Virus record (IMG/VR): IMGVR_UViG_3300027782_000037
Location: 32,001 to 96,000 of that record
Strand: one strand, 5' to 3'
DNA: 64,000 nucleotides
Source of the DNA: a virus
Shown here one piece after another: positions 3,439 through 46,227 of the stretch. A program made the translations under genes and the position numbers. Under the pieces are notes generated by a model. The model searched no databases, was not told where the DNA came from, and saw only the letters and a program-made list of their open reading frames with translations. The first letter of the stretch is position 1, and every line of letters begins with the position of its first letter.

Positions 3439-3472
3439 TCTTTCTCTTTTGTTTTGTGTACTACTTATACCA

Positions 3473-3883
3473 CTATATGCTGGGTTTGATAAATTTGTTC
3501 TTCACTTTTTGTGATAACGGAGTATTTACTATAACTTCCGTTCCCCAATTAAGTGTATATTTTTCTTTGTTAACCAATACTAAATTACGGTCGTCATCCG
3601 TTAAAACGAGCTCTGCAGATATCAAATCTGCATGGTCCACTAAAGTTATAGTATACAGTATTCCCAGTCCGCGAGCAAGATCACAGTACGTGTTGTCACT
3701 CAAAAGCTGCCAGGGGTCGGGCCAAGTTTCACGGTCGTCCCAGTGAAGATAATACCCAGTCCATGGAGCCTGATACCACCAATTACTAATCGTCTGGAGA
3801 GCTTGTTCCAGCGACATTGATTGAACTTCTTTACGAAGGTCAGCCCATGCGGTTAGTCTGTCAGAAAAATCCTTATGCCACAT
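3473..3883 (-). CDS. Hypothetical protein, possibly transglutaminase-like cysteine protease (BTLCP/LapG) fold
   Basis: WPDPWQLLSDNTYCDLARGLGILYTI loosely resembles the W-x-TP...GDCEDYAIAKY.TL motif; coupled to the upstream gene by TAATG. Confidence 0.35.
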   Translation of the reverse strand: MWHKDFSDRLTAWADLRKEVQSMSLEQALQTISNWWYQAPWTGYYLHWDDRETWPDPWQLLSDNTYCDLARGLGILYTITLVDHADLISAELVLTDDDRNLVLVNKEKYTLNWGTEVIVNTPLSQKVKNKFIKPSI

Positions 3884-5691
3884 TAACTAAAATAACTGAT
3901 TGAGTAACTCATTTGAGATGCTGCGTTTGCTGTAGAAACATATTGTAACGATACACTTTGTCCCACTTGTATAGCTGATAATATAACACTTAAATCTTCA
4001 TTTTCAGTATAATCATCTGTATAATTAGGAGTATACTGAGTGATTACACCGCCACTAGAATATGCGTTAGCGTAAGTACTAGAGTAACTTACTGAACTTG
4101 TGCTAGGAGCAGGTGTATTACCAACTATATATGTTCCATTATATCCAGACGGAACTATTTCTGTTACCACAATTGTGCTGCTTATAGGAAAGGTAACGCT
4201 AGATCCAGAGGTAAATGATAGTGTTGAAACAGAGCCATTGCCAGTAGCACCGGTTACGTTTCCAATAGTTGGTGTGCTTGCTTTAGAAACAAATATTGTC
4301 CCAGTTCTAAATAAGGTAGAACTTTGTACTATTGAGTAATCTACTTTAAAACTCAATATACTAGTACCAACAGTTAATATTGTATCGGTGGAGTTTGCTG
4401 ATAATGTTGTTACTAATCCAGACTGAACTGTTTTTGATCCTAGCTGTATTTGTGATCCATTTGTTGTGGCAATACTTACTGAGGTTCCCAATGATATTCT
4501 GGGGTACTGAGCAGCAAATGCGTCTGATCTTTCAAACATATCACCAACACTGGCATTGTTGTCACCTATTATGCTAATTACTGATTGCTGCGGGCTTGCC
4601 GTTCCGGCAAAATGATTGGCAACGTCATAAAAAATATTGTATCCACTTATATTAAGTGATACCTCTCCAAAAGTAATACCAAAACTGTAAATGTTATCAA
4701 ACACGTTATTAGTAATGCGAGTTCCTGTTGGTCCACCACTGTCACCAAGAGCTAGTGTAACTCCTTGATACAAGATATTAAAATTACTATTGGTAACTAC
4801 TATGCCTTTTGATACATAGTTGGCACTAACACCATAAGTTGTACCGCTAAACCTACATCCATCAAATACAACGTCGGTTGTGGTTACCATGTCACTTGAC
4901 AATAATACGCACGAAGTATCGGCTATAGAAGATGTTAATGTCGAGGTAGTACCAACACTATAAAATCCCACACTCTGAAATTGACTATTAGTAGTAGAGT
5001 CAACTAAAAATATATTCATGGAATCATCTAAACTTTGAAACGCCATATTAGCGATAGTGATATCAGTTGGAGGAGTTGCTCCACCATTGCCAATATTAGC
5101 TCCTGTTTGTTGCAAACTATCAGCAGTTTGTGCTACACAAGTAGTTCCAACAGCACTACCTGTTGCTACCATTTGAATAATAGAATTGTCAGGACCTTCG
5201 CCATATAATGTAGCATACGGAGGAATATTTATAGTACCTGAAATAATATAAACTCCGGCTGGAAAGAATAGACTACGCCGAATTTGTGGATTGGCTTGTA
5301 TACAATATAATTGATTTAACGCACGATTAATGGCAGCAGTGTCATCAGTAAGTCCATCACCTTTTGCGCCGAAATCCAATACAGAAGCAAATTGATCTAA
5401 CCAGTTCTGTAAACTTAGCGTAACAGGGGTACCGGGTGTAGGGCCAGTTTGCACAGTGTAACCTGCTGCTGTTCCCTTATATGTGTAACTGGCACCTAAA
5501 TTTAGAATATCAGAAAACTCTGTTAAAATTTCAGTATTTCCGATAACAGGGGCACCTTCTGCTAACGTACCATTACCAATATAAAGCTGACGTGTATCAG
5601 TAGACCAACCCAACTCAGCGCCGGCTAATTGAGGAAGATCCGCATTTAATCCTAAACGGTTGGTGATCTGAGAGATTTGAACGATTGCCAT
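3883..5691 (-). CDS. Tailspike or tail-fibre protein with pectate-lyase-3-type beta-helix
   Basis: N-terminal anchor (LPQLAGAELGWSTDTRQLYIGNG), SVLDFGAKGDGLTDDTAAINRAL, FFPAGVYII and beta-helix repeats; TAAATA and SD upstream. Confidence 0.8.
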   Translation of the reverse strand: MAIVQISQITNRLGLNADLPQLAGAELGWSTDTRQLYIGNGTLAEGAPVIGNTEILTEFSDILNLGASYTYKGTAAGYTVQTGPTPGTPVTLSLQNWLDQFASVLDFGAKGDGLTDDTAAINRALNQLYCIQANPQIRRSLFFPAGVYIISGTINIPPYATLYGEGPDNSIIQMVATGSAVGTTCVAQTADSLQQTGANIGNGGATPPTDITIANMAFQSLDDSMNIFLVDSTTNSQFQSVGFYSVGTTSTLTSSIADTSCVLLSSDMVTTTDVVFDGCRFSGTTYGVSANYVSKGIVVTNSNFNILYQGVTLALGDSGGPTGTRITNNVFDNIYSFGITFGEVSLNISGYNIFYDVANHFAGTASPQQSVISIIGDNNASVGDMFERSDAFAAQYPRISLGTSVSIATTNGSQIQLGSKTVQSGLVTTLSANSTDTILTVGTSILSFKVDYSIVQSSTLFRTGTIFVSKASTPTIGNVTGATGNGSVSTLSFTSGSSVTFPISSTIVVTEIVPSGYNGTYIVGNTPAPSTSSVSYSSTYANAYSSGGVITQYTPNYTDDYTENEDLSVILSAIQVGQSVSLQYVSTANAASQMSYSISYFS

Positions 5692-5717
5692 TTACTTGAT
5701 TCCTTAGTATCTAGTAT

Positions 5718-6437
5718 TTAGTTAATCGTGTAATAGAGCTCCAATCGTCGCCACCATACCTGTTCCCAGCGATCAAAGTCTTTGGGGTCCAGTATAAATT
5801 CCTGATATTGTGGGCGTTCTAACGGTTCCATGGTAGTGGGATCTACAGTGGGTTTTACACACATTAGTACTACACCTTTACGGATTTTTGTTCCGTAAAC
5901 CTCGTTGTGTGCCAGAGCATACGCCACTAGCTGTATGAAATAATCATCAATCCACTCTATTTTTTTGGGTTTATTTGTCTGTTTGTAGTCAAGTATACTT
6001 TCATCGCCCAGGTGTATACCACATCCATCTGTAGTACCGGCATACAATTGTGGGAAATATAAGGGAATTTCTACTCCCCAAATTTCATTGACGTTTTTAA
6101 GTCCATCTTCAATAACAGTCTGTGCCATTTTATGGCTTGCCCAACTGTAGGGATTAGATCCCCGTTCGCTTATTACACCATTGCGTATGTAATCTTCAAG
6201 ATATTTGTGCATCCTGGTACCGCGATTAGCAGCTTCTGTAGTAATAGCTTGGGCACGTTCTGTGCCTATGGAATTGCGCCAATTTTGTAGGGCTTGCTTT
6301 TTTTCTGCTGGCTGAGTGGCACTAAGAACTGTTGTTACCGAAGGGACTCGTCGTCCGTCTGGAGTTTGATAAAGTCTTTTTCCGGATTCATCAGTAGTTC
6401 GTGATAGGTCTTTATAATCAAATTTAGGTATATACAT
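5718..6437 (-). CDS. PD-(D/E)xK exonuclease (RecB/MGME1-like)
   Basis: PSVTTVLS, RGTRMHKYLE, YAGTTDG, ILDYKQ and QLVAY motifs. Confidence 0.85.
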   Translation of the reverse strand: MYIPKFDYKDLSRTTDESGKRLYQTPDGRRVPSVTTVLSATQPAEKKQALQNWRNSIGTERAQAITTEAANRGTRMHKYLEDYIRNGVISERGSNPYSWASHKMAQTVIEDGLKNVNEIWGVEIPLYFPQLYAGTTDGCGIHLGDESILDYKQTNKPKKIEWIDDYFIQLVAYALAHNEVYGTKIRKGVVLMCVKPTVDPTTMEPLERPQYQEFILDPKDFDRWEQVWWRRLELYYTIN

Positions 6438-6443
6438 TATACT

Positions 6444-6472
6444 AGTATAACTTAGTGGAAAACAACCATCAA
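6444..6472 (-). promoter_or_regulatory. Sigma70-type promoter, predicted leaderless, for the exonuclease
   Basis: TTGATG-17 nt-TATACT-6 nt-ATG(6437); no SD. Confidence 0.7.
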
Positions 6473-6473
6473 G

Positions 6474-6800
6474 TTATATGGTGAAACTTTCTCCGCAACC
6501 GCAACGGGCTGCTTCTTTGGGATTGATAAAATCAAAGCCTTCGTTAAGACCTTTGCGTACCCAATCCATTTTCATACCTGCTAGATAGGGCATGTCTTTT
6601 GGGTTAACCCAAATGTCGACTCCATGACAGTTGTAGTTGTCATAGTCTTGTACTGTATGTAGCTGATCTACGTATTCTAATTTGTATGCCAATCCACTGC
6701 ACCCAGTGGTACGAACACCAATTAATAAACCAAGCCCAGTAGGTCTCTGTGCAAGATTAAATTTAACTTTGTTTGCTGCCGCTTCTGTTAATGTTATCAT
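6474..6800 (-). CDS. iscA: A-type Fe-S cluster carrier IscA (HesB family)
   Basis: MITLTEAAA, RTTGCSGLAY, GLNEGFDFINP, CGCGESF. Confidence 0.95.
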   Translation of the reverse strand: MITLTEAAANKVKFNLAQRPTGLGLLIGVRTTGCSGLAYKLEYVDQLHTVQDYDNYNCHGVDIWVNPKDMPYLAGMKMDWVRKGLNEGFDFINPKEAARCGCGESFTI

Positions 6801-8634: not shown

Positions 8635-9689
8635 TACCGTTTAGCCCGACCTATTCCCGCTGTATCTGGCGCCGGTAATTCTTCTGGAGGTGCTTCTCCT
8701 CCGGGTGCTTCTCCACCAGGTGCTCCGCCGGGCATTCCTCCTTGGTCTGAACCGGCTCCTTGGTCTTGACCTGGAAGTGGTGAAGGTGCCGCTTGACCAG
8801 TTACAATACCCAGTGCTTGATCCATTTGCTGTTTAGCTGATTGAATATTCTGTACTAGTCCACCCAAGGCTGCTACCGCATCTTGATTAAATTGCATTGC
8901 TTGATCAACACCTACTTGGTTCTTCATTTCATCAACCAATGCTGGTAGGTCTTTAAACTGCATACTAGATACTTCTTCCAACATTTTCTGAATGTCGTCA
9001 ACCATTGCTCTAGCTGCCAGCACTACCTGGGCTTGCTGAATTTCTGATTCGCGCAGTACATTATATAACTGGCGACGAACTTTTCTACTTTCTGTTTGTA
9101 AAGCTCGCTTGGCAATTAACTTTTGTTCTTTTACTGTCAATGGTAGTCCACGCTTAACTTTAGCCATAGCCATGTTAATTTCTTGAACTTGTTGTTGACC
9201 AGGAGCCGGGGCTTGTCCTGGATTTGACGCTGATACGGCTGCTTGCATCTGCGCCGTTTGATTACCAGCTGCCTGCTGAACATTCTGTTGTTGCTGCTGA
9301 GCAGTTTTTAACTGTTGTTGTTGGGCTGCTTGTTTTACAGCATCACCAGCGGCGGCGACTGAGTTAGGTTGCGGAGCAGTGACTGCATCTTGTTGTTGGT
9401 TCTGAGTAGCACCAACTGTTGAGGCCATACCTACGGTTGGTGTTTCTTGTACTTTGGCCCGTAAAACACGTTCCATCATCATTAGTTTTAAGTAAGTAGG
9501 ATTTTGCTCGCTACTATGAAAAGCGGGAGTTGCTCGGTGTTCATTTACCAGCTTGCTTACTTTTTTCAGCATTGTACGTGCTTGACGTGTTGATATTACG
9601 TCAACGTTGATGCTGTCACCGAAGTAACTTTCAAATACCTTAGCGGCTTGTTTTGATGGCGTGGTCGCGGCCAGTTCGAACAGTTTCAT
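8634..9689 (-). CDS. Probable prohead core or internal head protein (Gln/Ala-rich, helical)
   Basis: MKLFEL start; late promoter at 9713-9718 with SD; low-complexity linkers and L/V-x-E sites. Confidence 0.55.
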   Translation of the reverse strand: MKLFELAATTPSKQAAKVFESYFGDSINVDVISTRQARTMLKKVSKLVNEHRATPAFHSSEQNPTYLKLMMMERVLRAKVQETPTVGMASTVGATQNQQQDAVTAPQPNSVAAAGDAVKQAAQQQQLKTAQQQQQNVQQAAGNQTAQMQAAVSASNPGQAPAPGQQQVQEINMAMAKVKRGLPLTVKEQKLIAKRALQTESRKVRRQLYNVLRESEIQQAQVVLAARAMVDDIQKMLEEVSSMQFKDLPALVDEMKNQVGVDQAMQFNQDAVAALGGLVQNIQSAKQQMDQALGIVTGQAAPSPLPGQDQGAGSDQGGMPGGAPGGEAPGGEAPPEELPAPDTAGIGRAKR

Positions 9690-26960: not shown

Positions 26961-28523
26961 CTAATACATGGCGGCGATGAAAGGTAATGGGGGAGTAATA
27001 TTTTCTCCATGATCCCTCATTTGCGTATCCATATCGGGGTGATACGTCTGTAATAGGATCATCATCCGTGTAACCAATATAGTGGCCATGACCAAATCAT
27101 CCGCAGACCCTGTTTTTGCTGCGTATCCAATGCCAGTTGCCACAAAGGTTTTAAGCTCAGATATTAGCGAACGACTGGTTATCGTCATCCTATTGGATTC
27201 TATCAAAGTTTTTAATTTGGCACAGGCTGTTAGTTTATTTTTATGGCTGGTATTGAATCCTTTGCGATATCTACCAGCGCCGCGAGTAGGATCTGACAAG
27301 AAATATCCCTTGATATTCTCTTCTCCGAACTGTTCAATAGATATAAGAGCTGCTTCACCAATAGTGTTGTTCTCTACCGAATAGTATATTGACTCTTCGT
27401 CCTTGGTAAACCCATAGATATACTTTACTACATCCGCAAGTATGCGCACCTGTTCGGGAATAGGGGTTCTATTGTGCTTCCATTCACCTATTTGATGAGT
27501 AGTATTAGCTTCAAAAATTTGTATAGCAGCAGTATCACCACCAGTACCCAAGGATGGATCAAGACCCACACAGTACATCTTACCGGCTTCTGGTTGTTTA
27601 TACCAACGTACTTGTGCAGTCTTGTAAATGGGCTCAATCCCTTCAAGTTCTATAAGTTTAGCCGGCGCAATCAGGGTCTCATCGTTAATAATGAACTCGC
27701 AGTCCATCTCCCGACGGAAGCGATCCTCACCTAATTGTGAACGTTGCTCTGCTGCCCACTTGTCATCTCTATCAGGATGCTCACGCCAATAGCTACGGAA
27801 AGCACGAAAGCCATTTATCCCCACTTGTTGGGGATTACCATGGCTGTCTTCCATTTTATTGGCACCTTTCCACAATAATGCAAACTGATCTTCGTCACTG
27901 TTTGGAGTGGAAGTTATAATACATTTACCACCAGTTGCTAATGTTGGGCTAATTGATGTCCAGAATTCCTGGGCGACACTGGGTCGTACGTGTGCGAACT
28001 CATCCGCATACAGTAGTGATATACTCATACCACGACCAGTGTTTTCAGTAGTGGTAGCTGATATAATGCGTGAGCCATTGTCAAAATCTATAGAGCCCAA
28101 GTTGTAGTTAGTGGCACCTGCACGAATATGATTGGGACAAAGCTCGTAAGCAAAACGAACACGCTTCATAATCTCTTGCGAACCATCATACTTGTGTGCT
28201 GATATAAGAATTGTTGAATCGGGTATAAACATAGCATACCATAGCAAGTATCCTGCTGCTGATGTGGACTTACCTGTTTGGCGCGGCATCATGGCAATAG
28301 CAAAACGATAGTTATGATACGAATCAATTAAGCGTACTTGGTATTCAAACGGACTATATAATTGACGACCCTGTGTAGGATGCTGAATATAGAAAAAGTT
28401 GCGCATGAAGTACTCGGGGCCGGTTACCGGATCAGCACATAGCGAAAATTCTTGCAGTTGTTTTTCTGTATATACTTCTTTTTTATAAGGCGTTTTTGCC
28501 AACGCCTGTGAATCATAACCCAT
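26961..28523 (-). CDS. terL: Terminase large subunit (T4 gp17-like; start corrected to 28523)
   Basis: PRQTGKST, LLYADEFA, TSTPN, GLDPSLGTGGD, DDLVMA; SD GGAGA before ATG(28523). Confidence 0.95.
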   Translation of the reverse strand: MGYDSQALAKTPYKKEVYTEKQLQEFSLCADPVTGPEYFMRNFFYIQHPTQGRQLYSPFEYQVRLIDSYHNYRFAIAMMPRQTGKSTSAAGYLLWYAMFIPDSTILISAHKYDGSQEIMKRVRFAYELCPNHIRAGATNYNLGSIDFDNGSRIISATTTENTGRGMSISLLYADEFAHVRPSVAQEFWTSISPTLATGGKCIITSTPNSDEDQFALLWKGANKMEDSHGNPQQVGINGFRAFRSYWREHPDRDDKWAAEQRSQLGEDRFRREMDCEFIINDETLIAPAKLIELEGIEPIYKTAQVRWYKQPEAGKMYCVGLDPSLGTGGDTAAIQIFEANTTHQIGEWKHNRTPIPEQVRILADVVKYIYGFTKDEESIYYSVENNTIGEAALISIEQFGEENIKGYFLSDPTRGAGRYRKGFNTSHKNKLTACAKLKTLIESNRMTITSRSLISELKTFVATGIGYAAKTGSADDLVMATILVTRMMILLQTYHPDMDTQMRDHGENITPPLPFIAAMY

Positions 28524-28524
28524 G

Positions 28525-28791
28525 TTATCTTCTCCGTGGAAAAAGAGCGTACCACGCGGGTGTACCGGGACGTATACCTGTAGATTTTGCGTATTCAAGT
28601 TCTGGAGATATTTTGGCCTTTTGTCTCTCGGCTGTGATACGATTGTATTCGGCTAATCGTGCTTGGCTACCTAATCCACCTAATTGCCCAGCAATCAATA
28701 ATTCATGTATAGGGTCATCTGGTTCAAGGTAGCAATCATTGTCACTACTTTGCACCAAATTTTCTGTTGTAATCCTATATTGTTTAGTCAT
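28525..28791 (-). CDS. Hypothetical protein (C-terminal GIRPGTPAWY motif)
   Basis: 88-aa ORF from ATG 28791, overlapping the nuclease stop. Confidence 0.7.
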   Translation of the reverse strand: MTKQYRITTENLVQSSDNDCYLEPDDPIHELLIAGQLGGLGSQARLAEYNRITAERQKAKISPELEYAKSTGIRPGTPAWYALFPRRR

Positions 28792-29596
28792 TGGAACCAC
28801 ACTTAGCACGTTTTGCCTGTGTTAATTTACCATAATCTACGGGCCATTCTTTGCCCGGGGCTAATTCGGTAGCGGTTGTTGGGAACGCATACTTAACTCC
28901 GGCGGTCTGCATAATCTGTGCCACGGAAACACGAAATTTAGTTAGGTCATTTCCTAAATTAGGATAAGGGGCAACATGCGGAAACTCCCATGCGGCAACT
29001 TCATTTGTTTGATTATTGATAACAATTTTATAAAAGCCATGTGGGACAACTACGCCATTGCCAATAGTTTTATTACCGGGTCCGTATAGTCCGCCAGTTA
29101 TAACAGTATATGATTGATTAAGTTGCACTGTCCATCCACGTATAGATGCTTCAAGTAATTTCCAAATTCCACGATTCAATGATCCTGCTTGCGGGCTCAT
29201 GTTGGTCATTAGGAACGATTCAAATTCAACTTGTGTGTCCCAGGATAAATCACCATCAGGTGCCATGTGTCCCTTATCATATCCAGTTGCTATGTAATCG
29301 TCGGGTCGAGGCCCGTTTGGTATAGATTGGTCAGTAACAAAAGCATTAGTGCGTGCGACACAACCCAATGCGTTAGGTGGGGTAAGTTCGTACATTACAA
29401 ACTCTGGTATTTTAGCTGCTGCGTCATATCCCACTAGGTACGCTTGTCTGCAAATTGGTTGCAGTTGTCTAGAACTTTGCGGAAATCCGTATGGGGCATG
29501 TACTTGGCACGCTGACACTGTGTTAGGCTCACGTTGGTTCCAGGCAAATACAGTAGATGACAATACTGCTAGTAATACAACAACTATTTTTTTCAT
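28784..29596 (-). CDS. Secreted DNA/RNA non-specific endonuclease (NucA/EndoG family)
   Basis: Signal peptide MKKIVVVLLAVLSSTVFA; YDKGHMAP, TNMSPQ, LNRGIWKLLE, VPHGFYKIV. Confidence 0.92.
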   Translation of the reverse strand: MKKIVVVLLAVLSSTVFAWNQREPNTVSACQVHAPYGFPQSSRQLQPICRQAYLVGYDAAAKIPEFVMYELTPPNALGCVARTNAFVTDQSIPNGPRPDDYIATGYDKGHMAPDGDLSWDTQVEFESFLMTNMSPQAGSLNRGIWKLLEASIRGWTVQLNQSYTVITGGLYGPGNKTIGNGVVVPHGFYKIVINNQTNEVAAWEFPHVAPYPNLGNDLTKFRVSVAQIMQTAGVKYAFPTTATELAPGKEWPVDYGKLTQAKRAKCGSND

Positions 29597-29611: not shown

Positions 29612-30445
29612 TTAGGGTTTAAAATGTTGCCTATTTTTAAGCCATTCAGCTTCTGCTTGTCGTCGTATTGCATCTCGTTCTGCTTCGGCCTTGGCGTCAG
29701 CTGCTCGTTTCTTGGGCAGTTCATTTTGATACCAATCAATATAACTAAGCGCAGTATTATTTAAGTACCACGCAACATCTTTATATGTTTTTAATTTTTC
29801 AAACGCCTTGGGATCTATTTTTCTAAATGGTCCATCTTTTTTAGCTATCAGTGTTTTGTTCTCTTTACCAGCAAATTTAGTGAAAAATTGTTCCAGGTCC
29901 AGTTGATAATATGTATTGCAATCGAATATTAGTTCATTTTTAATAAACTCCGTGGGCCAAGCATGTACATATGTTGCCGCCCATTTTTCTGCGTCGTCCA
30001 CCATTGAGCCTGTATTATTCTGCATACGAATTCTTTCTTCTTCGGAGGGATCTAATAAAGATTGGCCACCTAAATCCACAATCCTAGGACTCCAGTAGGG
30101 TGTAACATCATCCACGGGAATAAAGATACCTGCACGCCCATGGAATTGAAATATATTGTCATGCGGAGTCATCTGCGTGAACACCGGATATTTTATGTCC
30201 AATAGACTTAATATTGCATCCTGCCCTCTTTTACCCATACCGCCTTTTATTCCGGCAAACTGAGTGTCACTATTATCTACTTTAAGTAGCAATACTTCTG
30301 CAACTCTATGTTTGAATGCACGGAATAACAGCGGGTGGTTGCCTATTCGTTCGCATAATTGTGCTGCCACCTTGATACGATTTTTAAAATGTTCGATATC
30401 ATCCGCACGATTAATTAATTCTGGTAAAAATTCTCTTGATCTCAT
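29612..30445 (-). CDS. Probable internal head protein; candidate ADP-ribosyltransferase fold
   Basis: Capsid-targeting-like start MRSREFLPE; LLFRA...VFT...HG..IFIP...YWSP.IVDL...NELIF.C..YY pattern. Confidence 0.45.
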   Translation of the reverse strand: MRSREFLPELINRADDIEHFKNRIKVAAQLCERIGNHPLLFRAFKHRVAEVLLLKVDNSDTQFAGIKGGMGKRGQDAILSLLDIKYPVFTQMTPHDNIFQFHGRAGIFIPVDDVTPYWSPRIVDLGGQSLLDPSEEERIRMQNNTGSMVDDAEKWAATYVHAWPTEFIKNELIFDCNTYYQLDLEQFFTKFAGKENKTLIAKKDGPFRKIDPKAFEKLKTYKDVAWYLNNTALSYIDWYQNELPKKRAADAKAEAERDAIRRQAEAEWLKNRQHFKP

Positions 30446-30843
30446 CTTCTTTTGTAGCCTTTAAATGCTACCACTGGGCTTTTTAGAACGGTATCCGTTA
30501 ACTCATCGCTGGTTTTAGTACTTACCAATTTTTTGTCAGATGCCGGTAATCCCATGTCTTTGAGTGCCATATCAATCCATTTACCAATATCGGGATCAGA
30601 TGATATAACGATTTCGTTTTCTCCCCAACTAGATGTAGGATCAAACTCTGGATCGCCTTCTGCTTTTCTTGCTGCTTTTCCCTTAGCACCGGCCAGTGCT
30701 ACACTAAATCTATATTGCATGTAAGCGTTTTGATTTTGTAGTGCTGGAATAATATAGGTTGCAGGTAAACTACGGGCGACATCTGCGTGTATAGATCCCT
30801 TGTCAAAACTTGCATCTTCCGAGATAAATTCACGGGCTCTCAT
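30442..30843 (-). CDS. Probable internal head protein, paralog of the next gene
   Basis: MRAREFISE start; ends SPVVAFKGYKRR. Confidence 0.65.
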   Translation of the reverse strand: MRAREFISEDASFDKGSIHADVARSLPATYIIPALQNQNAYMQYRFSVALAGAKGKAARKAEGDPEFDPTSSWGENEIVISSDPDIGKWIDMALKDMGLPASDKKLVSTKTSDELTDTVLKSPVVAFKGYKRR

Positions 30844-31217
30844 CTGCGTTTATATCCTTTAAATGCTACTACTGGACTTTCCGTGTTTGTTGATGCTAAT
30901 TCTTCACTATCTAAATCACCGTCATTTAAATCTTCATACTCTACTCCGGCAGCTTTATATGCCAATTTAAGCATAGCCTGTTCTTCTTTAGTATAGGCAT
31001 GCGCAGTATTGTGTTTACCTACCCAACTTTCAGCATCCATTTTTATAGGATTTATTCCATCACTACTTGCTACCGCCATCATTACACGATTTAAATCATA
31101 TAGTTTATCATAGGTATCCATTCTCTTTGCGAACACATTTAACCCGCGAGTAGATTGTTGTTGGCGTTTGCTAATTTTGCCGGAGGCATTCTCAGCAATA
31201 AACTCACAGGCTCGCAT
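30840..31217 (-). CDS. Probable internal head protein
   Basis: MRACEFIAE start (compare T4 IPIII MKTYQEFIAE); ends SPVVAFKGYKRR. Confidence 0.65.
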   Translation of the reverse strand: MRACEFIAENASGKISKRQQQSTRGLNVFAKRMDTYDKLYDLNRVMMAVASSDGINPIKMDAESWVGKHNTAHAYTKEEQAMLKLAYKAAGVEYEDLNDGDLDSEELASTNTESPVVAFKGYKRR

Positions 31218-31219
31218 AA

Positions 31220-31708
31220 TTAGCTTTGCCCGTTTACGCCTGCGGTAGCAGATGAAGCAGTTCCTAATTCACGAGCAGTAAAGTTAGCACCAGTGATGGT
31301 CAAGTAATTACCAGCACCGACAAAAATCTGTTGACGACTATTTGCTGATATTTGTGGTGCAGCAGAATATAAATTACCGTTAGGTGGTGTAGTCACAGTA
31401 AAGACATTGGTGGCATTTGCGGTAGCATTAGCACTTAGGGTCACACTGGTAAATGGAATCTGCGAAGCTATAGTTGCTCCGCCAGGAATTCCAGTGCCAG
31501 AAATTGCACTACCTGCAGGCAATGTCATCGCTGCACTGGTAGTGATAACATTGCTGAGATTAGCAGTAGTGCCACTAAATGTAATTTGTGGTGGCAACGC
31601 AACCTGATAAACGTTATATGTGACAGCAGTATTGCCTGTAACAATTTCACATTTATCAGTGTACCAAATTACATTTGATGCCGATGTTAGTACATTTGCC
31701 TGTGCCAT
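31220..31708 (-). CDS. Virion structural protein (Thr/Ala-rich, beta)
   Basis: SD GGAG; contains an ISGTGIPGGATI-type beta module. Confidence 0.6.
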   Translation of the reverse strand: MAQANVLTSASNVIWYTDKCEIVTGNTAVTYNVYQVALPPQITFSGTTANLSNVITTSAAMTLPAGSAISGTGIPGGATIASQIPFTSVTLSANATANATNVFTVTTPPNGNLYSAAPQISANSRQQIFVGAGNYLTITGANFTARELGTASSATAGVNGQS

Positions 31709-34700
31709 TTATACTCCCTTATTTTCTATCGCAGAAATAGTTTTATACAAATCTATCATACGTTCGCCTTCAGTTACATGACTATGTAAACGTTTGACCT
31801 GACTCGCCACAACAGGTGTTGTTGTCTGCCCAGTTGTTTTGGCACCGTTTAATCCACCTGAAAGATTTTGTGTCATCATCCGTGTATCGGCTTTAACCTG
31901 ATTAGTTGGATAGTCTGGAGCGTTTGTTGTAACTGGAGCAACCGCTTCTGCAATACCAGCTAACTCACGTAACCGTTGGTTTTCTGAGTTACGCTGTATT
32001 GATTCCGACGTTGGTGCATTAGCTTGAGAGCCTGTATATTGTTGCTTAATAAGTCTGTCAGCGGTTTCTTTAGGACCGGCGCCGGCAAAGTATCCTATGT
32101 CTTCTGGGAACCAAGCAGCAGTTCCTCGAATAGTTTTATATACGTAACGTTTACCTTTAATCCAGAATGGAACCTTTTTATCAGCTTGTGGTGGGATTTC
32201 TTCTGGTTTAGTTACCTGGGTAGCGTTGAATGGAATACTAGGGCCTCCTGTATCCGGACCGTCGGCGGCATCCGCTGTCGCGGCCGCCATGTTGGCAGCA
32301 TCATAGCCCGCACCAGCACCGCCACCACCAGGGCCGCTTGTATCCGGACCGTCTGCGGCGCCTGCGGTAGCGGCAGCTTGTGCAGCATCGGCAGCTCTGT
32401 TAGCACCTACTTGCATCGCGGCACCTGCATCGGCATCTGCCGCGTCAGCAGAAGCACCAGCTTGATCTGCACTGCTACTGGCTGTGCTACCTGTTGGGAA
32501 TAGACCATGATATTGATTAATTAAAGAACTAAGTTCTGGATCAGGTTGTTCAGTGTTACCTAACTCCTTGTACAGGGTCTCTATTTCTTTCTTTTCCGCA
32601 TCATTCAAATCTTCCAGCAATCTCATTTTATTAAGGAAATGACTAATACTTTCGGTATAACCTTGAGGCGTCGCTGCGTTAAACGGTTCAGCTGGCGCTG
32701 GGGGAGTTGATGGATTTCCAGGATAGGTTCCAGGATTATAATGGGGATCAGATGCTGCGGCCGCAGTTATAGAATCAGGACGTTTGCGTGCTTGCGCCAA
32801 TAGTTCCTTGAATCGTGCAATCTTGTCAGCTTGTGACTTAGCGGCTGGTGCTGCGGCTGGTGCTGCGGCTGGTGCTGCGGCTGGTGCTGCGGCTGGTGCT
32901 GCGGCTGGTGCTGCGGCTGAAACTTTTGCCATTTTTGCTTTAGACTCTGGTCCCCAAATACCGTCTGGTGCTGCGCCTATTTCATTTTGTTTTGCCACAA
33001 CAGCGGCTTTAGTTTTTTGTCCAAAGTCACCATCTTGGTCTTCGGGTTTCATTCCTAGCAGTTTCTGCAGAGCCTTAACTTCCGGACCTTTACTTCCCAC
33101 TGCCAACAAACCACCAGCTGCTGCTGGGGCTGCTGGTTTCGCTGCGGCTGCTGGCGCTGCTGTCTGACCGCGTGGGCCTTGATTAACTCCGTCAGCGGCA
33201 CCAGCAACAGCCTGCGCCTGAGCCTGTGGGGTAACCTTGGCACTACCATCAGGATTAGCATCGTTAATACCTGCGGCACGACCCCAGCCACTACCGTCCG
33301 CCATTGCACTAATAATATGCTGATCGGTAGGATCTGCGCCGCCAATCTTTTGTTTCATTTGCGGACTTAATTTAGCATAGGCGGCTGCTTGCGGGCTACC
33401 AGCAGGCCAGGGACCGTTTGGGCCCGTAGCTGCCGGCGCTGCTTCATCTATTTCTATGAAATCGGAAGGCATACCTTGTGATCCATGCATGTGTTCCGCA
33501 TCATCATCGCCGCCGACACCCATGCTGTGCAGTAATTCTTTAATACGAGCAACATCATCACCACTTACATCGATAGTAATGTGTTCATCTTCTTCACCTT
33601 CGTCACCTTTGGTTGAATTGGTTGTGATGTTGATACTTTCAGATAGCATAGTGTTGTACTTACGATTCCATGAATCATAAATTCCTTTACCTACACTCAT
33701 GCCACCTGAAGATTTGCCACCTGCCGCTGGAGCCACCGAACCGGAAGTTGTTGTTTCTTCAACTTTCTTTTCTTTTTTATCTTTCTTTTTGCCGCCTTCT
33801 TCATCCTTACCTAAACGACCAGCAACAACATCACCTCGTGTTACTTTGTCATAGGGTTTAGCATTATTCGCTAAATTACCATCGCCTTTGCCTTCTTCAG
33901 TTTTTTTAGCTGGTTTATCACCTTCCTTGGCTTTTTTGGTAGGCTTATCACTGCCCTTGGCCGGCGCGGCAGGCTTGGCTGGTGACTTAGACTTGTTGGC
34001 TTTGATAGCTTTGTCTACTGACCCAGCATGTTCTGCTTTGCCAGATTCTTTTTTGCCATCACCATCGTAGTCTTTTTTAGCTTTAGCACCGCCAACTACT
34101 TTGGCTATGCCGGCTGCTTTTCTAGCAGCAGGAGCTACGTTATTCACAAAATGACCCATACCTTGTTTTACAGCTTCTAAATCAATTTCACGACCTCGAC
34201 CATGCCCTGGCATTGATTGGCCACAATGTGGACATTCGCCACGACCTTCATCCATTTCTTTTGATCGAGCATGTTTAGGAACGTGTGTACCCGCTAAACG
34301 AGCACCACCACCGCCTTTACTGCCAGCAGGACGTCCACGCTTACGGGGGCCATCTGAACTTGCTACTGGTTTTTCAACTTCATCGCTGTCAAACGGAACT
34401 TCTTTGCGCTTACGTGTGTAAACTGTTCCGCCTGCTGGGCTTCTGTCACGACTATATGCAGAATCTAAATCAGCAGTTGGCTTTCCAAATTTTGAATCAT
34501 ATTCATCTGATCCTGGGAACATACTTCCTTCAAATTCCATGCCATTGTGTGCATCAGCAGCACCCGGACGGCCATTGTATGGGCGACTGGTTGAACGCGA
34601 TTTTGGATTAGCAGGTGCAATTTTATTTTTTAAATAACTTAAAATATCCTCTTCTGATTCGTCCAGAGGAGCAGGTTGGTTCTTAGGTTCGTCGTTACAA

Positions 34701-36082
34701 TGCACTGGGCATTCATCTTGTCCCAATGTCTTGCAGCAGCACTTGAGTTTGGCTTTCTTGCCAGCGCCAGTCTTTTTCATTGACTCGGATAGTGATCTAG
34801 GTTTACTGCCGGATGCCACGACTTCGTAATCATCAGGATCTGTATCGAAATGTTTTCCACATAGTCTGTCTATCGCATGGCCTACCGATTGCCCAAGAAC
34901 ATTTCTTGCTACTAATTTCCAGGACGGCATTCCATGGCGTTCGGTCCACATATAAATGTCTTTCAACTCATTATAGTCATGTGTTTCGTCTAGGTCAGTC
35001 ATAACTGGCGGCTGACCAGTGTCTCTCTGGCCAACACGTCTCTTTGCTGTACGTTGATTCTTTTGCGCTCGCAGTCTGGCAATTGCCGCATCATCCCAGT
35101 CTTTATTTCTAGGATTCATATCTTTTGGTTGTTCACCGTGCATATCACATTCTCCCATGGCACATTCCGCACATTCCTCACCTTCTGCCATACCTTGTTG
35201 GCCACCTTTTGCTCGGGCTTGTTCTCTAGTAGGACTGAATCCTTCTGCTCGTGCTTGTGCATGTTGGCTAGGATAAACTGATGCTTTCATTAACTTACCA
35301 TCTATAACGATATACCAGTCAGATGGATCTAGATCATGACGCTCATCATCTTCTCGATCTCTTGCGCCGCCAACACCACGGAAACCACGGTCTGCTTCAT
35401 CAATATTACCATGTCTGTTATCATGCATATGTCGGTCGTTCATACCCACAAGAATTTCTTCAACTACACTAGCAGAACAATCTAAATCCATAGCAATAAT
35501 ATCTGTTAATTCGCCAATGGCCTCATCTGATATAGGGAATTCTATGCCCTTGTGTTTTACTGCCTGCTCTACCTCAGAATACCAAGAGTCCACCAACTCT
35601 GCATGTTGATCATCAGGATCTCTATCGTAGTCGCCGCCGCCTTGATGCCAAATAGAGTTTGGATCAGATAATTCTCTGGGATCATGCCCCCATTCGTTAA
35701 CTTTTTTCTTACCTTTGCCTTGTATGTTAAGGGCAAAGTTAGCACGTTTCTTTTCTAGAGGAGTACCCGATTTCTTAAGACTGTTTAATTTTTTGTCGCC
35801 AATTTTCTTGTCTTGTGGAATACCTTCTTGCTTATGTAAGGCACCTTTCTTGACTGTTGTAGCAGCTTTGCTCAATGACTTGTCTTTTGCTTCTAGAGTA
35901 TTGCTACCATACGCACCGCCGGTGCCATCTTCCATAAGACTACGTAAGTCTGTACGTAATGCTTCTTCAAGTGTCTTTTTAGCAGGTGATTTGGCGGCAA
36001 CAGTTCGTGTTTCAACTAATGGTGTCTTGGGTTCAGCACCGATGCTGGTTAGTCTTTTGTTTAGGTCATAAAATGGGTTCAT
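31709..36082 (-). CDS. 1457-aa modular prohead-core or internal protein with a peptidoglycan-binding domain
   Basis: PG-binding-1 (LAVGSKGPEVKALQKLL...DGDFGQKT...DGIWGPES), AT-hook RKRGRP, DYDGDG motif, Cys clusters and many hydrophobic-x-E sites. Confidence 0.65.
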   Translation of the reverse strand: MNPFYDLNKRLTSIGAEPKTPLVETRTVAAKSPAKKTLEEALRTDLRSLMEDGTGGAYGSNTLEAKDKSLSKAATTVKKGALHKQEGIPQDKKIGDKKLNSLKKSGTPLEKKRANFALNIQGKGKKKVNEWGHDPRELSDPNSIWHQGGGDYDRDPDDQHAELVDSWYSEVEQAVKHKGIEFPISDEAIGELTDIIAMDLDCSASVVEEILVGMNDRHMHDNRHGNIDEADRGFRGVGGARDREDDERHDLDPSDWYIVIDGKLMKASVYPSQHAQARAEGFSPTREQARAKGGQQGMAEGEECAECAMGECDMHGEQPKDMNPRNKDWDDAAIARLRAQKNQRTAKRRVGQRDTGQPPVMTDLDETHDYNELKDIYMWTERHGMPSWKLVARNVLGQSVGHAIDRLCGKHFDTDPDDYEVVASGSKPRSLSESMKKTGAGKKAKLKCCCKTLGQDECPVHCNDEPKNQPAPLDESEEDILSYLKNKIAPANPKSRSTSRPYNGRPGAADAHNGMEFEGSMFPGSDEYDSKFGKPTADLDSAYSRDRSPAGGTVYTRKRKEVPFDSDEVEKPVASSDGPRKRGRPAGSKGGGGARLAGTHVPKHARSKEMDEGRGECPHCGQSMPGHGRGREIDLEAVKQGMGHFVNNVAPAARKAAGIAKVVGGAKAKKDYDGDGKKESGKAEHAGSVDKAIKANKSKSPAKPAAPAKGSDKPTKKAKEGDKPAKKTEEGKGDGNLANNAKPYDKVTRGDVVAGRLGKDEEGGKKKDKKEKKVEETTTSGSVAPAAGGKSSGGMSVGKGIYDSWNRKYNTMLSESINITTNSTKGDEGEEDEHITIDVSGDDVARIKELLHSMGVGGDDDAEHMHGSQGMPSDFIEIDEAAPAATGPNGPWPAGSPQAAAYAKLSPQMKQKIGGADPTDQHIISAMADGSGWGRAAGINDANPDGSAKVTPQAQAQAVAGAADGVNQGPRGQTAAPAAAAKPAAPAAAGGLLAVGSKGPEVKALQKLLGMKPEDQDGDFGQKTKAAVVAKQNEIGAAPDGIWGPESKAKMAKVSAAAPAAAPAAAPAAAPAAAPAAAPAAKSQADKIARFKELLAQARKRPDSITAAAASDPHYNPGTYPGNPSTPPAPAEPFNAATPQGYTESISHFLNKMRLLEDLNDAEKKEIETLYKELGNTEQPDPELSSLINQYHGLFPTGSTASSSADQAGASADAADADAGAAMQVGANRAADAAQAAATAGAADGPDTSGPGGGGAGAGYDAANMAAATADAADGPDTGGPSIPFNATQVTKPEEIPPQADKKVPFWIKGKRYVYKTIRGTAAWFPEDIGYFAGAGPKETADRLIKQQYTGSQANAPTSESIQRNSENQRLRELAGIAEAVAPVTTNAPDYPTNQVKADTRMMTQNLSGGLNGAKTTGQTTTPVVASQVKRLHSHVTEGERMIDLYKTISAIENKGV
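32841..32919. repeat. 12-bp tandem repeat (GCGGCTGGTGCT x6.6) encoding a (PAAA)n linker
   Basis: Perfect tandem copies visible directly in the sequence. Confidence 0.95.
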
Positions 36083-36087
36083 TACTA

Positions 36088-36699
36088 TTATCCTTTAGTT
36101 TTTGCGCCGGTTGCTGGGCGTTTGGGTCTTTTTTCTGCATGAGTTAGTGGACTAGTATTGCCCATTTTCAAGTCATTCGTTGTTTCCGCTGCCTTAGGGC
36201 TACCGCCGGCAATAGTAAAGTTTGAACGATATGCATTTTTTAATACAGCGTGATCATACGGATCAGCCGAATAATCTTTCTTCTGTTCTTTCTGTGCTTT
36301 GTCATCTGCTGGATAATCAGTATCATCTAGCAATGATGGCGGTTGATCTGCCAGTTTTTTCTGATAGTCATCGTTATTATCATCATATACAGATGTCTGC
36401 ATAACAATTTTATTTTCATCTAACCCAAGTAAACGAGCGATCTGTTTGATCTGTGGCTCAATTGCTGGGTAACGAAACATAACATCTATACTGGTGACTT
36501 TATCGTTTTCAAATGCTGGAAAATCAGCAGGCTTTGCTTGAATGGGCGTGGATTTTTCAGTACCAATTTTAAGTGGATCAAATTGTTCCAGACGTCCCTT
36601 CAGCGCATCGTAGAAACCCGAGGGCAATTCACCTACTATCTTAATGCGATAGTTATAGGTTCTTTCGCTTTCTGCCAAATACTCTTTAAAATTTTTCAT
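36088..36699 (-). CDS. Probable virion protein with a capsid-targeting-like N-terminus
   Basis: MKNFKEYLAE; late promoter 36717-36722; SD AGGA. Confidence 0.65.
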   Translation of the reverse strand: MKNFKEYLAESERTYNYRIKIVGELPSGFYDALKGRLEQFDPLKIGTEKSTPIQAKPADFPAFENDKVTSIDVMFRYPAIEPQIKQIARLLGLDENKIVMQTSVYDDNNDDYQKKLADQPPSLLDDTDYPADDKAQKEQKKDYSADPYDHAVLKNAYRSNFTIAGGSPKAAETTNDLKMGNTSPLTHAEKRPKRPATGAKTKG

Positions 36700-45729: not shown

Positions 45730-45758
45730 AGTATAGCAAGATACTAGATATTAGTCAA
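45730..45758 (-). promoter_or_regulatory. Sigma70-type promoter (extended -10), predicted leaderless
   Basis: TTGACT-17 nt-TATACT, with TG at -15/-14, then 6 nt-ATG(45723). Confidence 0.75.
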
Positions 45759-46227
45759 TGTCTTTTACTTGGTTTGGGCGAAAAATCCATTCATACCGTG
45801 TATCTACATCACCAACAGCTCTACCAAACTTCCAATCAGGGCCCAATAATTGATTGAAGAATCTGACAGCATACTTGTCGTATAAACTTACACGACTGTC
45901 TTCGTTATTATGGGCATGGAACCAAATGAAGGTTGGACCAAGTTGATTTACCATTGGTGGCAATCGTTTTTTTAAAATTTGTGCTACTGTGCTGAAGATT
46001 CTAAACTGATCTCCTTCGCCTGTTATGTCCGTACTACCATTAACCTTAAACACAATATCTATTGCCCAACCTTGGTTAGTCCATATCCCTTCCAGCAAAA
46101 CTTCTATTTTGCCATCCTTGGTAGTAATTATTTTAAAATCTTTTGCGCCATGTTCTATTTTGAATGGATAGGGGTTGTTACCCAACTCAGTTAAGTTAGA
46201 TTCGGCTACGATTTCACTAAATCGCAT
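45751..46227 (-). CDS. Probable internal head protein (start corrected to 46227)
   Basis: MRFSEIVAE start TAATG-coupled to the gp13-like gene; TGEGDQFRIFSTV...SRVSLY motif. Confidence 0.6.
   Translation of the reverse strand: MRFSEIVAESNLTELGNNPYPFKIEHGAKDFKIITTKDGKIEVLLEGIWTNQGWAIDIVFKVNGSTDITGEGDQFRIFSTVAQILKKRLPPMVNQLGPTFIWFHAHNNEDSRVSLYDKYAVRFFNQLLGPDWKFGRAVGDVDTRYEWIFRPNQVKDID

What the first reader, a model, noticed from the sequence alone, without database searches (positions are those of the whole stretch)
29612..31217. Cassette-like array of capsid-tagged cargo proteins
Seen: three ATGA-coupled genes start MRACEFIAE, MRAREFISE and MRSREFLPE. The first two end in the identical peptide SPVVAFKGYKRR, so the junction DNA (CCAGTxGTAGCATTTAAAGGxTAxAAAxGxAGATGAGA) is a direct repeat at about 30440-30480 and 30838-30878. 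Similar N-termini occur at 36699 (MKNFKEYLAE), 46227 (MRFSEIVAE) and more weakly at 9689 and 8634. Established: T4 internal proteins carry a capsid-targeting sequence (IPIII MKTYQEFIAE) that the prohead protease cuts after Glu, and the T-even IPI locus is a variable anti-defence cassette. Inference: this is an expandable locus of packaged, co-injected effectors that can be swapped by recombination at the repeated junctions.
Basis: partly seen in the sequence, partly recalled or inferred. Interest (0 to 1): 0.8.

Follow-up and report, generated by a model that had tools for sequence, protein, structure and literature searches.

The report
T4-style capsid-loading tags, giant phage
Three back-to-back genes of an uncultured giant T4-like phage start with the same nine-residue peptide, very like the tag phage T4 uses to load proteins into its head and trim them, so they are probably head-packaged proteins, although nobody has shown packaging or cutting.

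Summary
Observation confirmed. On the minus strand, three ATGA-coupled genes (125, 133 and 277 aa) begin MRACEFIAE, MRAREFISE and MRSREFLPE. The first two end in SPVVAFKGYKRR, which gives a 64-nt junction repeat.

Interpretation partly supported.
- The tag M-R-A-x-E-F-[ILV]-x-E is real. It is kept at peptide level, since all synonymous codons are used.
- It is near-invariant in over 100 distinct family members and heads at least 37 unrelated proteins in other viral contigs.
- Large related genomes carry 2-6 copies each; the reversed-pattern control gave none.
- Its core, EF[IL]xE, matches the T4 capsid-targeting sequence MKTYQEFIAE.
- This genome and five tagged relatives all encode a gp21-type (S77) prohead protease.
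- Where the 277-aa body lies inside longer proteins, h-x-E is kept at the joint in 7 of 7 cases.

- The first two genes are not swappable cargo. They are old paralogs, a conserved pair upstream of the large terminase in 73 of 87 analysed loci, from a family of over 4,100 clusters.
- The pair was still replaced as a block by recombination, with breakpoints at the tag junctions.
- The stretch between the pair and the terminase varies in gene content.

Packaging, cleavage and any anti-defence role are untested. This scan has found similar tags before on other phage DNA.

The parts
30840..31217 (-). Gene p125 (125 aa): tag MRACEFIAE, predicted disordered linker, small alpha/beta core, acidic linker, tail SPVVAFKGYKRR
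   Evidence: ORF. Paralog of p133. AF2 model with pLDDT 60.5 shows helix 4-9 and a core at about 22-99. Only generic ferredoxin-like fold matches, Z up to 7.9.
30442..30843 (-). Gene p133 (133 aa): tag MRAREFISE and the same C-terminal tail; paralog of p125
   Evidence: ORF. About 30% identity over the full length to p125; E 1e-8 for this pair and down to 1e-15 with relatives' copies.
29612..30445 (-). Gene p277 (277 aa): tag MRSREFLPE on an unrelated body; accessory tagged gene
   Evidence: ORF. Homologs keep M-[RK]-x-x-E-h-h-x-E with E9 invariant. 52 representative clusters, some with the body inside longer proteins. No fold match.
31191..31217 (-). Tag-coding 27 nt of p125
   Evidence: Pattern match; 0 expected by shuffling.
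30817..30843 (-). Tag-coding 27 nt of p133
30419..30445 (-). Tag-coding 27 nt of p277
30817..30880 (.). Junction repeat copy 2: the p125 tail codons, the ATGA overlap and the p133 tag
   Evidence: the repeat finder family D1, 78% identity.
30419..30482 (.). Junction repeat copy 1: the p133 tail codons, the ATGA overlap and the p277 tag
36088..36699 (-). p203, N-terminus MKNFKEYLAE (10-residue, T4-like form)
   Evidence: Homolog of PA5oct gp282, which is annotated as a virion protein by ESI-MS/MS. Weak hit to phrog_14802, virion structural protein. The PA5oct homolog lacks the LxE.
45751..46227 (-). p158, N-terminus MRFSEIVAE (looser tag)
   Evidence: No family hit.
31220..31708 (-). p162, the conserved upstream neighbour of the pair in group A loci
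28784..29596 (-). Endonuclease_NS gene with signal peptide; part of the variable stretch between the pair and TerL
   Evidence: Pfam PF01223, E 1.8e-39. Present in only some relatives.
26961..28523 (-). Large terminase (T4 type), the downstream anchor of the locus
   Evidence: Pfam Terminase_6N and 6C. 52.6% identity to PA5oct TerL.

Best explanation
The nine N-terminal residues M-R-[AS]-x-E-F-[ILV]-x-E are this phage lineage's version of the T4 capsid-targeting sequence. As a short amphipathic helix, the tag docks the newly made protein onto the scaffolding core of the assembling prohead. After the shell closes, the gp21-type (S77) prohead protease cuts behind Glu9 at its [L/I/V]-x-E site. 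The small propeptide leaves and the body stays in the head with the DNA. The 125-aa and 133-aa proteins are an old paralogous pair of such internal head proteins. They are a core feature of a very large group of uncultured aquatic T4-like and giant phages, and they carry a second conserved peptide at the C-terminus (SP-V-x-x-F-K-G-Y-K-R-R) that is probably a second contact, to DNA or to the shell. The 277-aa protein is an unrelated accessory cargo with the same tag. The locus between this pair and the large terminase is a recombination hot spot. The pair itself has been replaced as a block, with breakpoints at the tag-coding junctions, and the genes behind it differ from phage to phage. Shown here: the motif, its peptide-level conservation, its spread over unrelated proteins, the presence of the head machinery, and the mosaic structure. 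Inferred: docking, cleavage, retention in the head and delivery into the host.
For: (1) Motif: 3 hits in the window against 0 in shuffles. Positions 1, 2, 3, 5, 6, 7 and 9 are near-invariant in 62 p125-type and 51 p133-type distinct sequences, while positions 4 and 8 vary. (2) Every synonymous codon is used at the conserved positions (Arg AGA/CGA/AGG/CGT/CGG, all four Ala codons, both Glu, both Phe, three Ile), so selection acts on the peptide, not the DNA. (3) The same tag sits on unrelated bodies. Of 129 ORFs starting MRA[RS]EFIxE in viral contigs, 37 belong to neither the pair nor p277. They include GNAT acetyltransferases, GH19 and SLT cell-wall hydrolases with LysM, an RNA-ligase-like protein and very basic small proteins. 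(4) Dose per genome resembles T4. Five large related genomes have 2-6 strict tags each, with 0 in the reversed-pattern control. All 21 MRAxEF starts in those genomes carry h-x-E within 11 residues. (5) Positive control: the 10-residue form of the pattern hits T4 only three times, at ipII, ipIII and 61.1. The T4 capsid-targeting sequence is MKTYQEFIAE, cut once by the head protease (PMC8442874; PMC5694885). (6) Machinery: Peptidase_S77 is present in this genome (phrog_207, E 1e-57) and in 5 of 5 tagged large genomes. The genome also has a Gp23-type capsid protein with a roughly 53-residue N-terminal extension holding several L-x-E motifs, and a scaffold-like protein whose N-terminus contains EFVTE. 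(7) Where the p277 body is internal in longer proteins, the residues aligned to tag positions 7-9 are I-D-E, L-S-E, V-K-E, F-N-E, V-T-E, V-T-E and F-S-E, that is 7 of 7, while the MRAxEF part is gone. (8) The AF2 model of p125 gives helix 4-9 followed by a low-confidence stretch at 9-22, which would be an accessible cut site. (9) The array lies in the late structural block: sheath, tube, head closure, virion proteins, terminase. (10) Mosaicism: against relatives L002 and L004, nucleotide identity is roughly 75-100% in the flanks and 59-74% between 31217 and 30445. Against L002, dS is 1.14 for p125 and saturated for p133, versus 0.15-0.36 in the flanks.
Against: There are no proteomic, cleavage or packaging data for this uncultured phage or any close relative. 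The closest cultured relative with a virion proteome, PA5oct, has no strict tag, and its homolog of p203 lacks the L-x-E. S77 proteases occur in all T4-like phages, so co-occurrence with the tag does not discriminate. The mature proteins are not basic like the T4 internal proteins (pI 6.8-8.4). One tagged protein in another contig has a Tat export signal directly after the tag, which fits export rather than packaging. In the p277 family, E9 and the hydrophobic residue at position 7 could be part of the fold rather than a cut site. Both structure models are of middling confidence (pLDDT about 60).
Confidence: 0.55

Rival explanations
1. The tagged proteins, above all the conserved p125/p133 pair, are prohead core or scaffold accessory proteins, like T4 gp67 and gp68. 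They are loaded and cut by the protease but then degraded or expelled. On this reading they are assembly factors, not delivered effectors.
For: The pair is a conserved core feature next to the packaging genes in 73 of 87 analysed loci and belongs to a family of over 4,100 clusters. That fits an essential assembly role better than an accessory effector. The scaffold-like protein carries the same EFVTE core. T4 core proteins gp67 and gp68 are also small and cut by gp21 (PMC5694885).
Against: The pair was replaced by a very divergent allele between otherwise near-identical phages, which is unusual for a tightly fitted scaffold part. Other tagged bodies are enzymes (GNAT, cell-wall hydrolases), which make sense only if they are kept and delivered.
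Confidence: 0.2
2. The tag is the recognition site of a different partner, such as a modifying enzyme, a chaperone or an export or degradation system, and has nothing to do with the capsid. The resemblance to the T4 sequence is convergent.
For: An earlier case in this scan (e1-127136) showed that a shared phage N-terminal leader can belong to a radical-SAM enzyme rather than to capsid sorting. One tagged protein has a Tat signal after the tag. In loci L006 and L007, tagged genes sit beside phage DnaK, GroES and GroEL genes rather than head genes.
Against: The core E-F-[IL]-x-E is identical to that of the T4 sequence and ends in the gp21 cleavage motif. h-x-E is kept at internal joints in 7 of 7 cases. 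All tagged genomes tested have the S77 protease. I did not look for a candidate alternative enzyme near the tagged genes.
Confidence: 0.15
3. No function: the shared ends are left over from tandem duplication and translational coupling, and the junction repeat is only paralogy.
For: p125 and p133 are paralogs. The ATGA overlap forces part of the junction sequence.
Against: The tag also heads p277 and dozens of unrelated proteins. It is held constant while synonymous sites are saturated. Chance expectation is 0.
Confidence: 0.03

Closest known systems
Capsid-targeting sequence (CTS) of phage T4 internal proteins IPII and IPIII (MKTYQEFIAE), removed by the gp21 prohead protease (PMC8442874; PMC5694885; Mullaney and Black 1996, as cited there)
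   Same: A short N-terminal peptide on unrelated proteins. The core E-F-[IL]-x-E is identical and ends in the protease motif [L/I]-x-E. There are only a few tagged genes per genome. The head module is of the same type: a Gp23-family capsid protein, an S77 protease and a scaffold.
   Different: Nine residues rather than ten, and M-R-A in place of M-K-T-Y. The bodies have no sequence similarity to T4 internal proteins and are not basic. The two main carriers also have a conserved C-terminal peptide, for which I know of no T4 counterpart. Function is untested here.
T-even internal-protein loci as variable sets of defence-countering proteins that share only the CTS (PMC3012670)
   Same: Allelic replacement with breakpoints at the tag-coding junctions, and variable gene content next to the tagged genes among relatives.
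   Different: The two main genes here are conserved in a large share of the sampled uncultured contigs rather than accessory. No anti-defence activity or target is indicated.
Long N-terminal propeptides of ejection proteins in giant phages SPN3US and phiKZ (PMC5694885; PMC10052503)
   Same: Giant phages that load many proteins into the head and trim them with a related protease. Paralogous head proteins there also share N-termini.
   Different: Those propeptides are 100 residues or longer, with an A/S/G-x-E motif. Here the tag is T4-sized.
Pseudomonas phage PA5oct (closest cultured relative by large terminase, 52.6% identity)
   Same: Same order of sheath, tube, head-closure, virion-protein and terminase genes. 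Its gp282 and gp281 correspond to p203 and p1457.
   Different: PA5oct has nothing between gp281 and TerL, and no strict tag anywhere in its genome.

Membership tests
T4-type capsid-targeting sequence (CTS) proteins | N-terminal peptide of about 10 residues ending in [L/I]-x-E | tested here: met
   MRACEFIAE, MRAREFISE and MRSREFLPE. Near-invariant in over 100 family members.
T4-type capsid-targeting sequence (CTS) proteins | The same peptide heads proteins whose bodies are unrelated | tested here: met
   p277 matches p125 and p133 only in the 9 tag residues. 37 further unrelated bodies in other contigs.
T4-type capsid-targeting sequence (CTS) proteins | The genome encodes a gp21-type (Peptidase_S77) prohead protease and a gp23-type shell | tested here: met
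   PF03420, E 1.8e-26, and PF07068, E 7.9e-97. 5 of 5 tagged large genomes have S77.
T4-type capsid-targeting sequence (CTS) proteins | The peptide is cut off after the Glu by the prohead protease | not testable with these tools
   Indirect only: h-x-E is kept at internal joints in 7 of 7 cases, and the model shows a low-confidence linker after Glu9.
T4-type capsid-targeting sequence (CTS) proteins | The peptide is sufficient to load a protein into the prohead | not testable with these tools
   Needs a reporter fusion in a cultured phage.
T4 internal proteins IPI, IPII, IPIII | Sequence or fold relationship to the T4 proteins | tested here: not met
   tblastn of the three proteins against 50,697 phage records gave no match. 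No Pfam or PHROG family.
T4 internal proteins IPI, IPII, IPIII | Small, highly basic mature proteins | tested here: not met
   Mature pI 6.95, 6.80 and 8.37. Only the last residues (KRR) are basic.
Variable internal-protein cassette locus (T-even type) | Locus content or alleles differ between close relatives while the flanks are conserved | tested here: met
   Identity drops from roughly 75-100% in the flanks to 59-74% between 31217 and 30445. dS against L002 is 1.14 or saturated, versus 0.15-0.36 in the flanks. One to six different genes lie between the pair and TerL.
Variable internal-protein cassette locus (T-even type) | The products counter host defence | not tested

The most novel reading that the evidence does not exclude
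M-R-A-x-E-F-h-x-E is a portable capsid-loading and cleavage address used across a very large clade of uncultured aquatic giant T4-like phages. If so, the set of proteins each phage packs and delivers, including acetyltransferases, cell-wall hydrolases and basic DNA-binding modules, could be read from sequence alone. The abundant p125/p133 pair would then be a new class of two-ended internal head protein: an N-terminal loading tag plus a C-terminal FKGYKRR anchor. The tag-coding junctions would also serve as recombination joints for exchanging cargo.
Probability: 0.4. Interest if true: 0.7.

Novelty: new variant of a known kind. Interest (0 to 1): 0.55.

Why it matters
If the tag works as in T4, a nine-residue motif would let the packaged and probably injected proteins of hundreds of uncultured giant phages be predicted from sequence. 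It would also give a first functional handle on a protein family with more than 4,100 sequence clusters and no annotation. The tag would be a candidate tool for loading foreign proteins into large capsids. Finally, the locus shows that short conserved tag and tail sequences coincide with recombination breakpoints, which is a concrete way such cargo sets could be shuffled.

Tried and rejected
- Cultured phages: no DNA or protein match for the locus or any of the three proteins in 50,697 phage records.
- Families: no Pfam or PHROG family for the three proteins. A profile of the pair family found nothing meaningful among solved structures (E 0.93). The ESM Atlas gave only unnamed viral clusters at a chance-level score.
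- Folds: the p277 model (pLDDT 61) had no Foldseek match at E 0.001 or better and VIA Z of 4.4 at most. Faint PARP/ART and 2H-phosphoesterase rows were not followed because their probabilities were 0.06 or lower, and my by-eye reading of the conserved residues did not fit R-S-E or H-x-T/S signatures. The p125 model gave only generic ferredoxin-like matches, Z 7.9 at most.
- Late promoter: the T4 late-promoter word TATAAATA is not enriched and does not lie near the array. The sigma-70 and terminator scans were at chance level. Timing of expression is therefore inferred only from position in the structural block.
- PA5oct as proteomic support: it has no strict tag, so it gives none. PA5oct gp279 (MKLFEV...) is not a homolog of the window's MKLFEL protein.
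- Small terminase idea: the predicted fold of the pair is alpha/beta rather than the helical fold I would expect of a small terminase (my own knowledge, not tested), so I dropped it.
- Literature: searches for MRAREF, MRASEF and MRAKEF found nothing relevant.

Full report
**1. Observation**

The three genes lie on the minus strand. They run 31217-30840 (125 aa, called p125 here), 30843-30442 (133 aa, p133) and 30445-29612 (277 aa, p277). They begin MRACEFIAE, MRAREFISE and MRSREFLPE, and both junctions are ATGA overlaps. p125 and p133 end in the identical SPVVAFKGYKRR. The tail codons plus the next tag form a 64-nt direct repeat of 78% identity at 30419-30482 and 30817-30880. A degenerate pattern for M-R-x-x-E-F-h-x-E matches the window three times, exactly at these starts, against none in 100 shuffles.

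**2. Context**

- The window is part of a 157-kb IMG/VR viral contig, estimated 45% complete.
- Its large terminase is T4-type and 52.6% identical to that of the Pseudomonas jumbo phage PA5oct.
- Reading along the minus strand, the order is: tail sheath, tube proteins, head closure, p203 (a homolog of PA5oct virion protein gp282), a 1457-aa protein with a peptidoglycan-binding region, p162, the three tagged genes, a secreted-type Endonuclease_NS, an 88-aa ORF, TerL, then a 664-aa virion protein.
- PA5oct has nothing between gp281 and TerL.
- Outside the window, the genome encodes a 216-aa Peptidase_S77 prohead protease. Next to it lie a coiled-coil, scaffold-like protein of 365 aa and a Gp23-family capsid protein (PF07068, E 7.9e-97). 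The Pfam domain of that capsid protein starts at residue 54, behind an N-terminal stretch with several L-x-E motifs.

**3. What the genes are**

p125 and p133 are full-length paralogs: about 30% identity, E 1e-8 for this pair and down to 1e-15 with relatives' copies. They are therefore not two different cargoes, and the conserved tail and tag that make up the junction repeat follow from this paralogy.

- The family is very large. A profile search found 4,108 clusters (90% identity) at E 0.01 or better, on contigs up to 358 kb, all without a Pfam domain.
- It has no match in 50,697 deposited phage genomes.
- The AF2 model (pLDDT 60.5) gives a short helix at 4-9, a low-confidence stretch at 9-22, a small alpha/beta core (about 22-99) with only generic ferredoxin-like matches, then an acidic flexible linker and the C-terminal peptide.
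- In the 87 related viral loci I analysed, the two genes sit side by side in 73, and TerL lies downstream wherever the contig reaches that far. In 25 loci the order is p203, p1457, p162, p125, p133, variable genes, TerL. In 48 loci the order is reversed: p133, p125, a protein of about 230 aa, variable genes, TerL.

p277 is unrelated to the pair except for the nine tag residues. Its family has 52 representative clusters. It occurs in this position only in the closest relatives and elsewhere sits among other tagged genes. Its model (pLDDT 61) matched no known fold.

**4. The tag**

- Conservation: across 62 distinct p125-type and 51 p133-type sequences, positions 1, 2, 3, 5, 6, 7 and 9 (M, R, A, E, F, I/V/L, E) are near-invariant, while positions 4 and 8 vary freely.
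- Level of selection: all synonymous codons are used at the conserved positions, so the constraint is on the peptide, not on DNA or mRNA.
Of 129 ORFs starting with the tag, 92 belong to the pair family and 37 are other proteins of 21-626 aa.
- Kinds of tagged protein: several GNAT acetyltransferases; GH19 and SLT cell-wall hydrolases with LysM; DUF6934 and DUF6321 proteins; an RNA-ligase-like protein; and small, very basic proteins.
- Dose per genome: five large related genomes (191-353 kb) hold 2-6 strict tags each, and the reversed-pattern control holds none.
- Unbiased check of positions 7-9: with only MRAxEF specified there are 21 starts. Nineteen have h-x-E at positions 7-9, and the other two have it shifted by one or two residues.
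- Positive control: the ten-residue form of the pattern hits the T4 genome three times, at ipIII, ipII and gene 61.1. The published T4 capsid-targeting sequence is MKTYQEFIAE, cut once by the head protease (PMC8442874). T4 internal head proteins use it to join the scaffolding core (PMC5694885). The T-even internal proteins are described as a diverse set that shares only this sequence (PMC3012670).
- The core E-F-[IL]-x-E is the same in T4 and here.

**5. Link to the protease**

- All five tagged large genomes encode Peptidase_S77, as does this one.
- The scaffold-like protein begins with a stretch containing EFVTE.
- The most telling result concerns longer proteins in which the p277 body is internal. 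The residues aligned with tag positions 7-9 are I-D-E, L-S-E, V-K-E, F-N-E, V-T-E, V-T-E and F-S-E. That is 7 of 7, while the M-R-A-x-E-F part is absent. This is what a module boundary defined by an [L/I/V/F]-x-E cleavage site would look like.
- Those longer proteins themselves mostly start with tag-like N-termini.
- Modules also move. A 106-aa tagged protein in locus L119 consists of the tag plus a basic module that is 76% identical to the C-terminal extension of a p277 homolog.

**6. Locus dynamics**

- Against the close relatives L002 and L004, nucleotide identity is roughly 75-100% in the flanks (89-100% for L002) and falls to 59-74% between 31217 and 30445, which spans the two small genes.
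- Against L002, synonymous divergence is 1.14 for p125 and saturated for p133, versus 0.15-0.36 for p203, p162, p277 and TerL. The pair was therefore replaced by a distant allele through recombination; it did not simply evolve faster in place.
- In L004, whose p277 and TerL are about 94% identical to the window's, the pair is in reversed order and only 33-38% identical to the window's copies.
- Between the pair and TerL, relatives carry one to six different genes, some of them with tag-like N-termini.

It is not supported for the two small genes as independent cassettes.

**7. Proposed mechanism**

- Shown: a peptide-level conserved N-terminal motif; its presence on unrelated bodies; the T4-type head machinery; retention of h-x-E at internal joints; and a mosaic locus.
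- Inferred: the tag helix binds the scaffolding core; the S77 protease cuts after Glu9; the bodies stay in the head and enter the host with the DNA; and the C-terminal FKGYKRR peptide of the pair is a second contact. I put the capsid-loading and trimming reading at about 0.55.

**8. Rivals**

- (a) The pair are core or scaffold accessory proteins that are loaded, cut and discarded, like T4 gp67 and gp68. Their conservation favours this; the allelic replacement and the enzyme cargoes argue against it as a general account.
- (b) The tag serves another partner. A Tat signal follows the tag in one contig. Some arrays sit beside phage chaperone genes. An earlier case in this scan (e1-127136) shows that shared leaders can belong to other systems.
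- (c) Pure paralogy with no function. contradict this.

**9. Comparison and novelty**

The thing works like the T4 capsid-targeting sequence and meets every sequence-level criterion of that class. [quoted passage not shown] Text searches for MRAREF, MRASEF and MRAKEF found no relevant description of the tag. Other agents of this scan have reported similar T4-style tags in other uncultured giant phages, so it is a recurring feature of such genomes rather than a peculiarity of this window. I rate it a new variant of a known kind.

**10. Limits**

- Both structure models are of middling confidence.
- No expression, proteome or cleavage data exist for this phage.

Noticed in passing
window 28525-28791 (-): An 88-aa ORF lies directly in front of the TerL ATG (28523) and ends in ...WYALFPRRR, an aromatic-plus-basic C-terminus reminiscent of the FKGYKRR tail. 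Many related loci have a gene of about 90 aa in this position. It could be a small terminase or another packaging factor.
   Followed up: partly
window 28784-29596 (-): A DNA/RNA non-specific endonuclease (PF01223, E 1.8e-39) with an N-terminal signal peptide sits inside the late structural block. It is present in only some relatives.
   Followed up: partly
window 31709-36082 (-): A 1457-aa low-complexity protein with Ala/Pro repeats and a peptidoglycan-binding region around residues 916-1075. It corresponds in position to the PA5oct virion protein gp281 and is a candidate ejected cell-wall-binding protein.
   Followed up: partly
L090 (phage T4) 18966-19130 (-): T4 gene 61.1 (54 aa) starts MKTFKEFIKE. 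Apart from ipII and ipIII it is the only T4 hit to the 10-residue tag pattern.
   Followed up: no
L141:413-1294 (+): A LysM plus SLT protein starts with the tag MRASEFIAE, directly followed by a twin-arginine (Tat) export signal. This combination does not fit simple capsid loading.
   Followed up: no
L119:4086-4403 (-) and protein P0004 residues 315-373: A basic module (ENFADGK...WLANMKAGRAKKNK) occurs both as a stand-alone tagged protein and fused behind a p277-family body (76% identity over 59 aa). A second recurring module ends ...PDKAICKARRRWNC. Both look like shuffled DNA-binding-like pieces.
   Followed up: partly
L006 about 1578-5943 and L007 about 2258-6618 (+): Phage-encoded DnaK-, GroES-, GroEL- and small-heat-shock-like genes (by my reading of the ORF translations) lie a few genes upstream of an array of tagged genes that includes a p277 homolog.
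   Followed up: no
p125/p133 family, alignment A4: Besides the two terminal peptides, a third invariant short motif, S-x-E (p125 residues 104-106), lies in the predicted flexible C-terminal linker. Its meaning is unknown.
   Followed up: no
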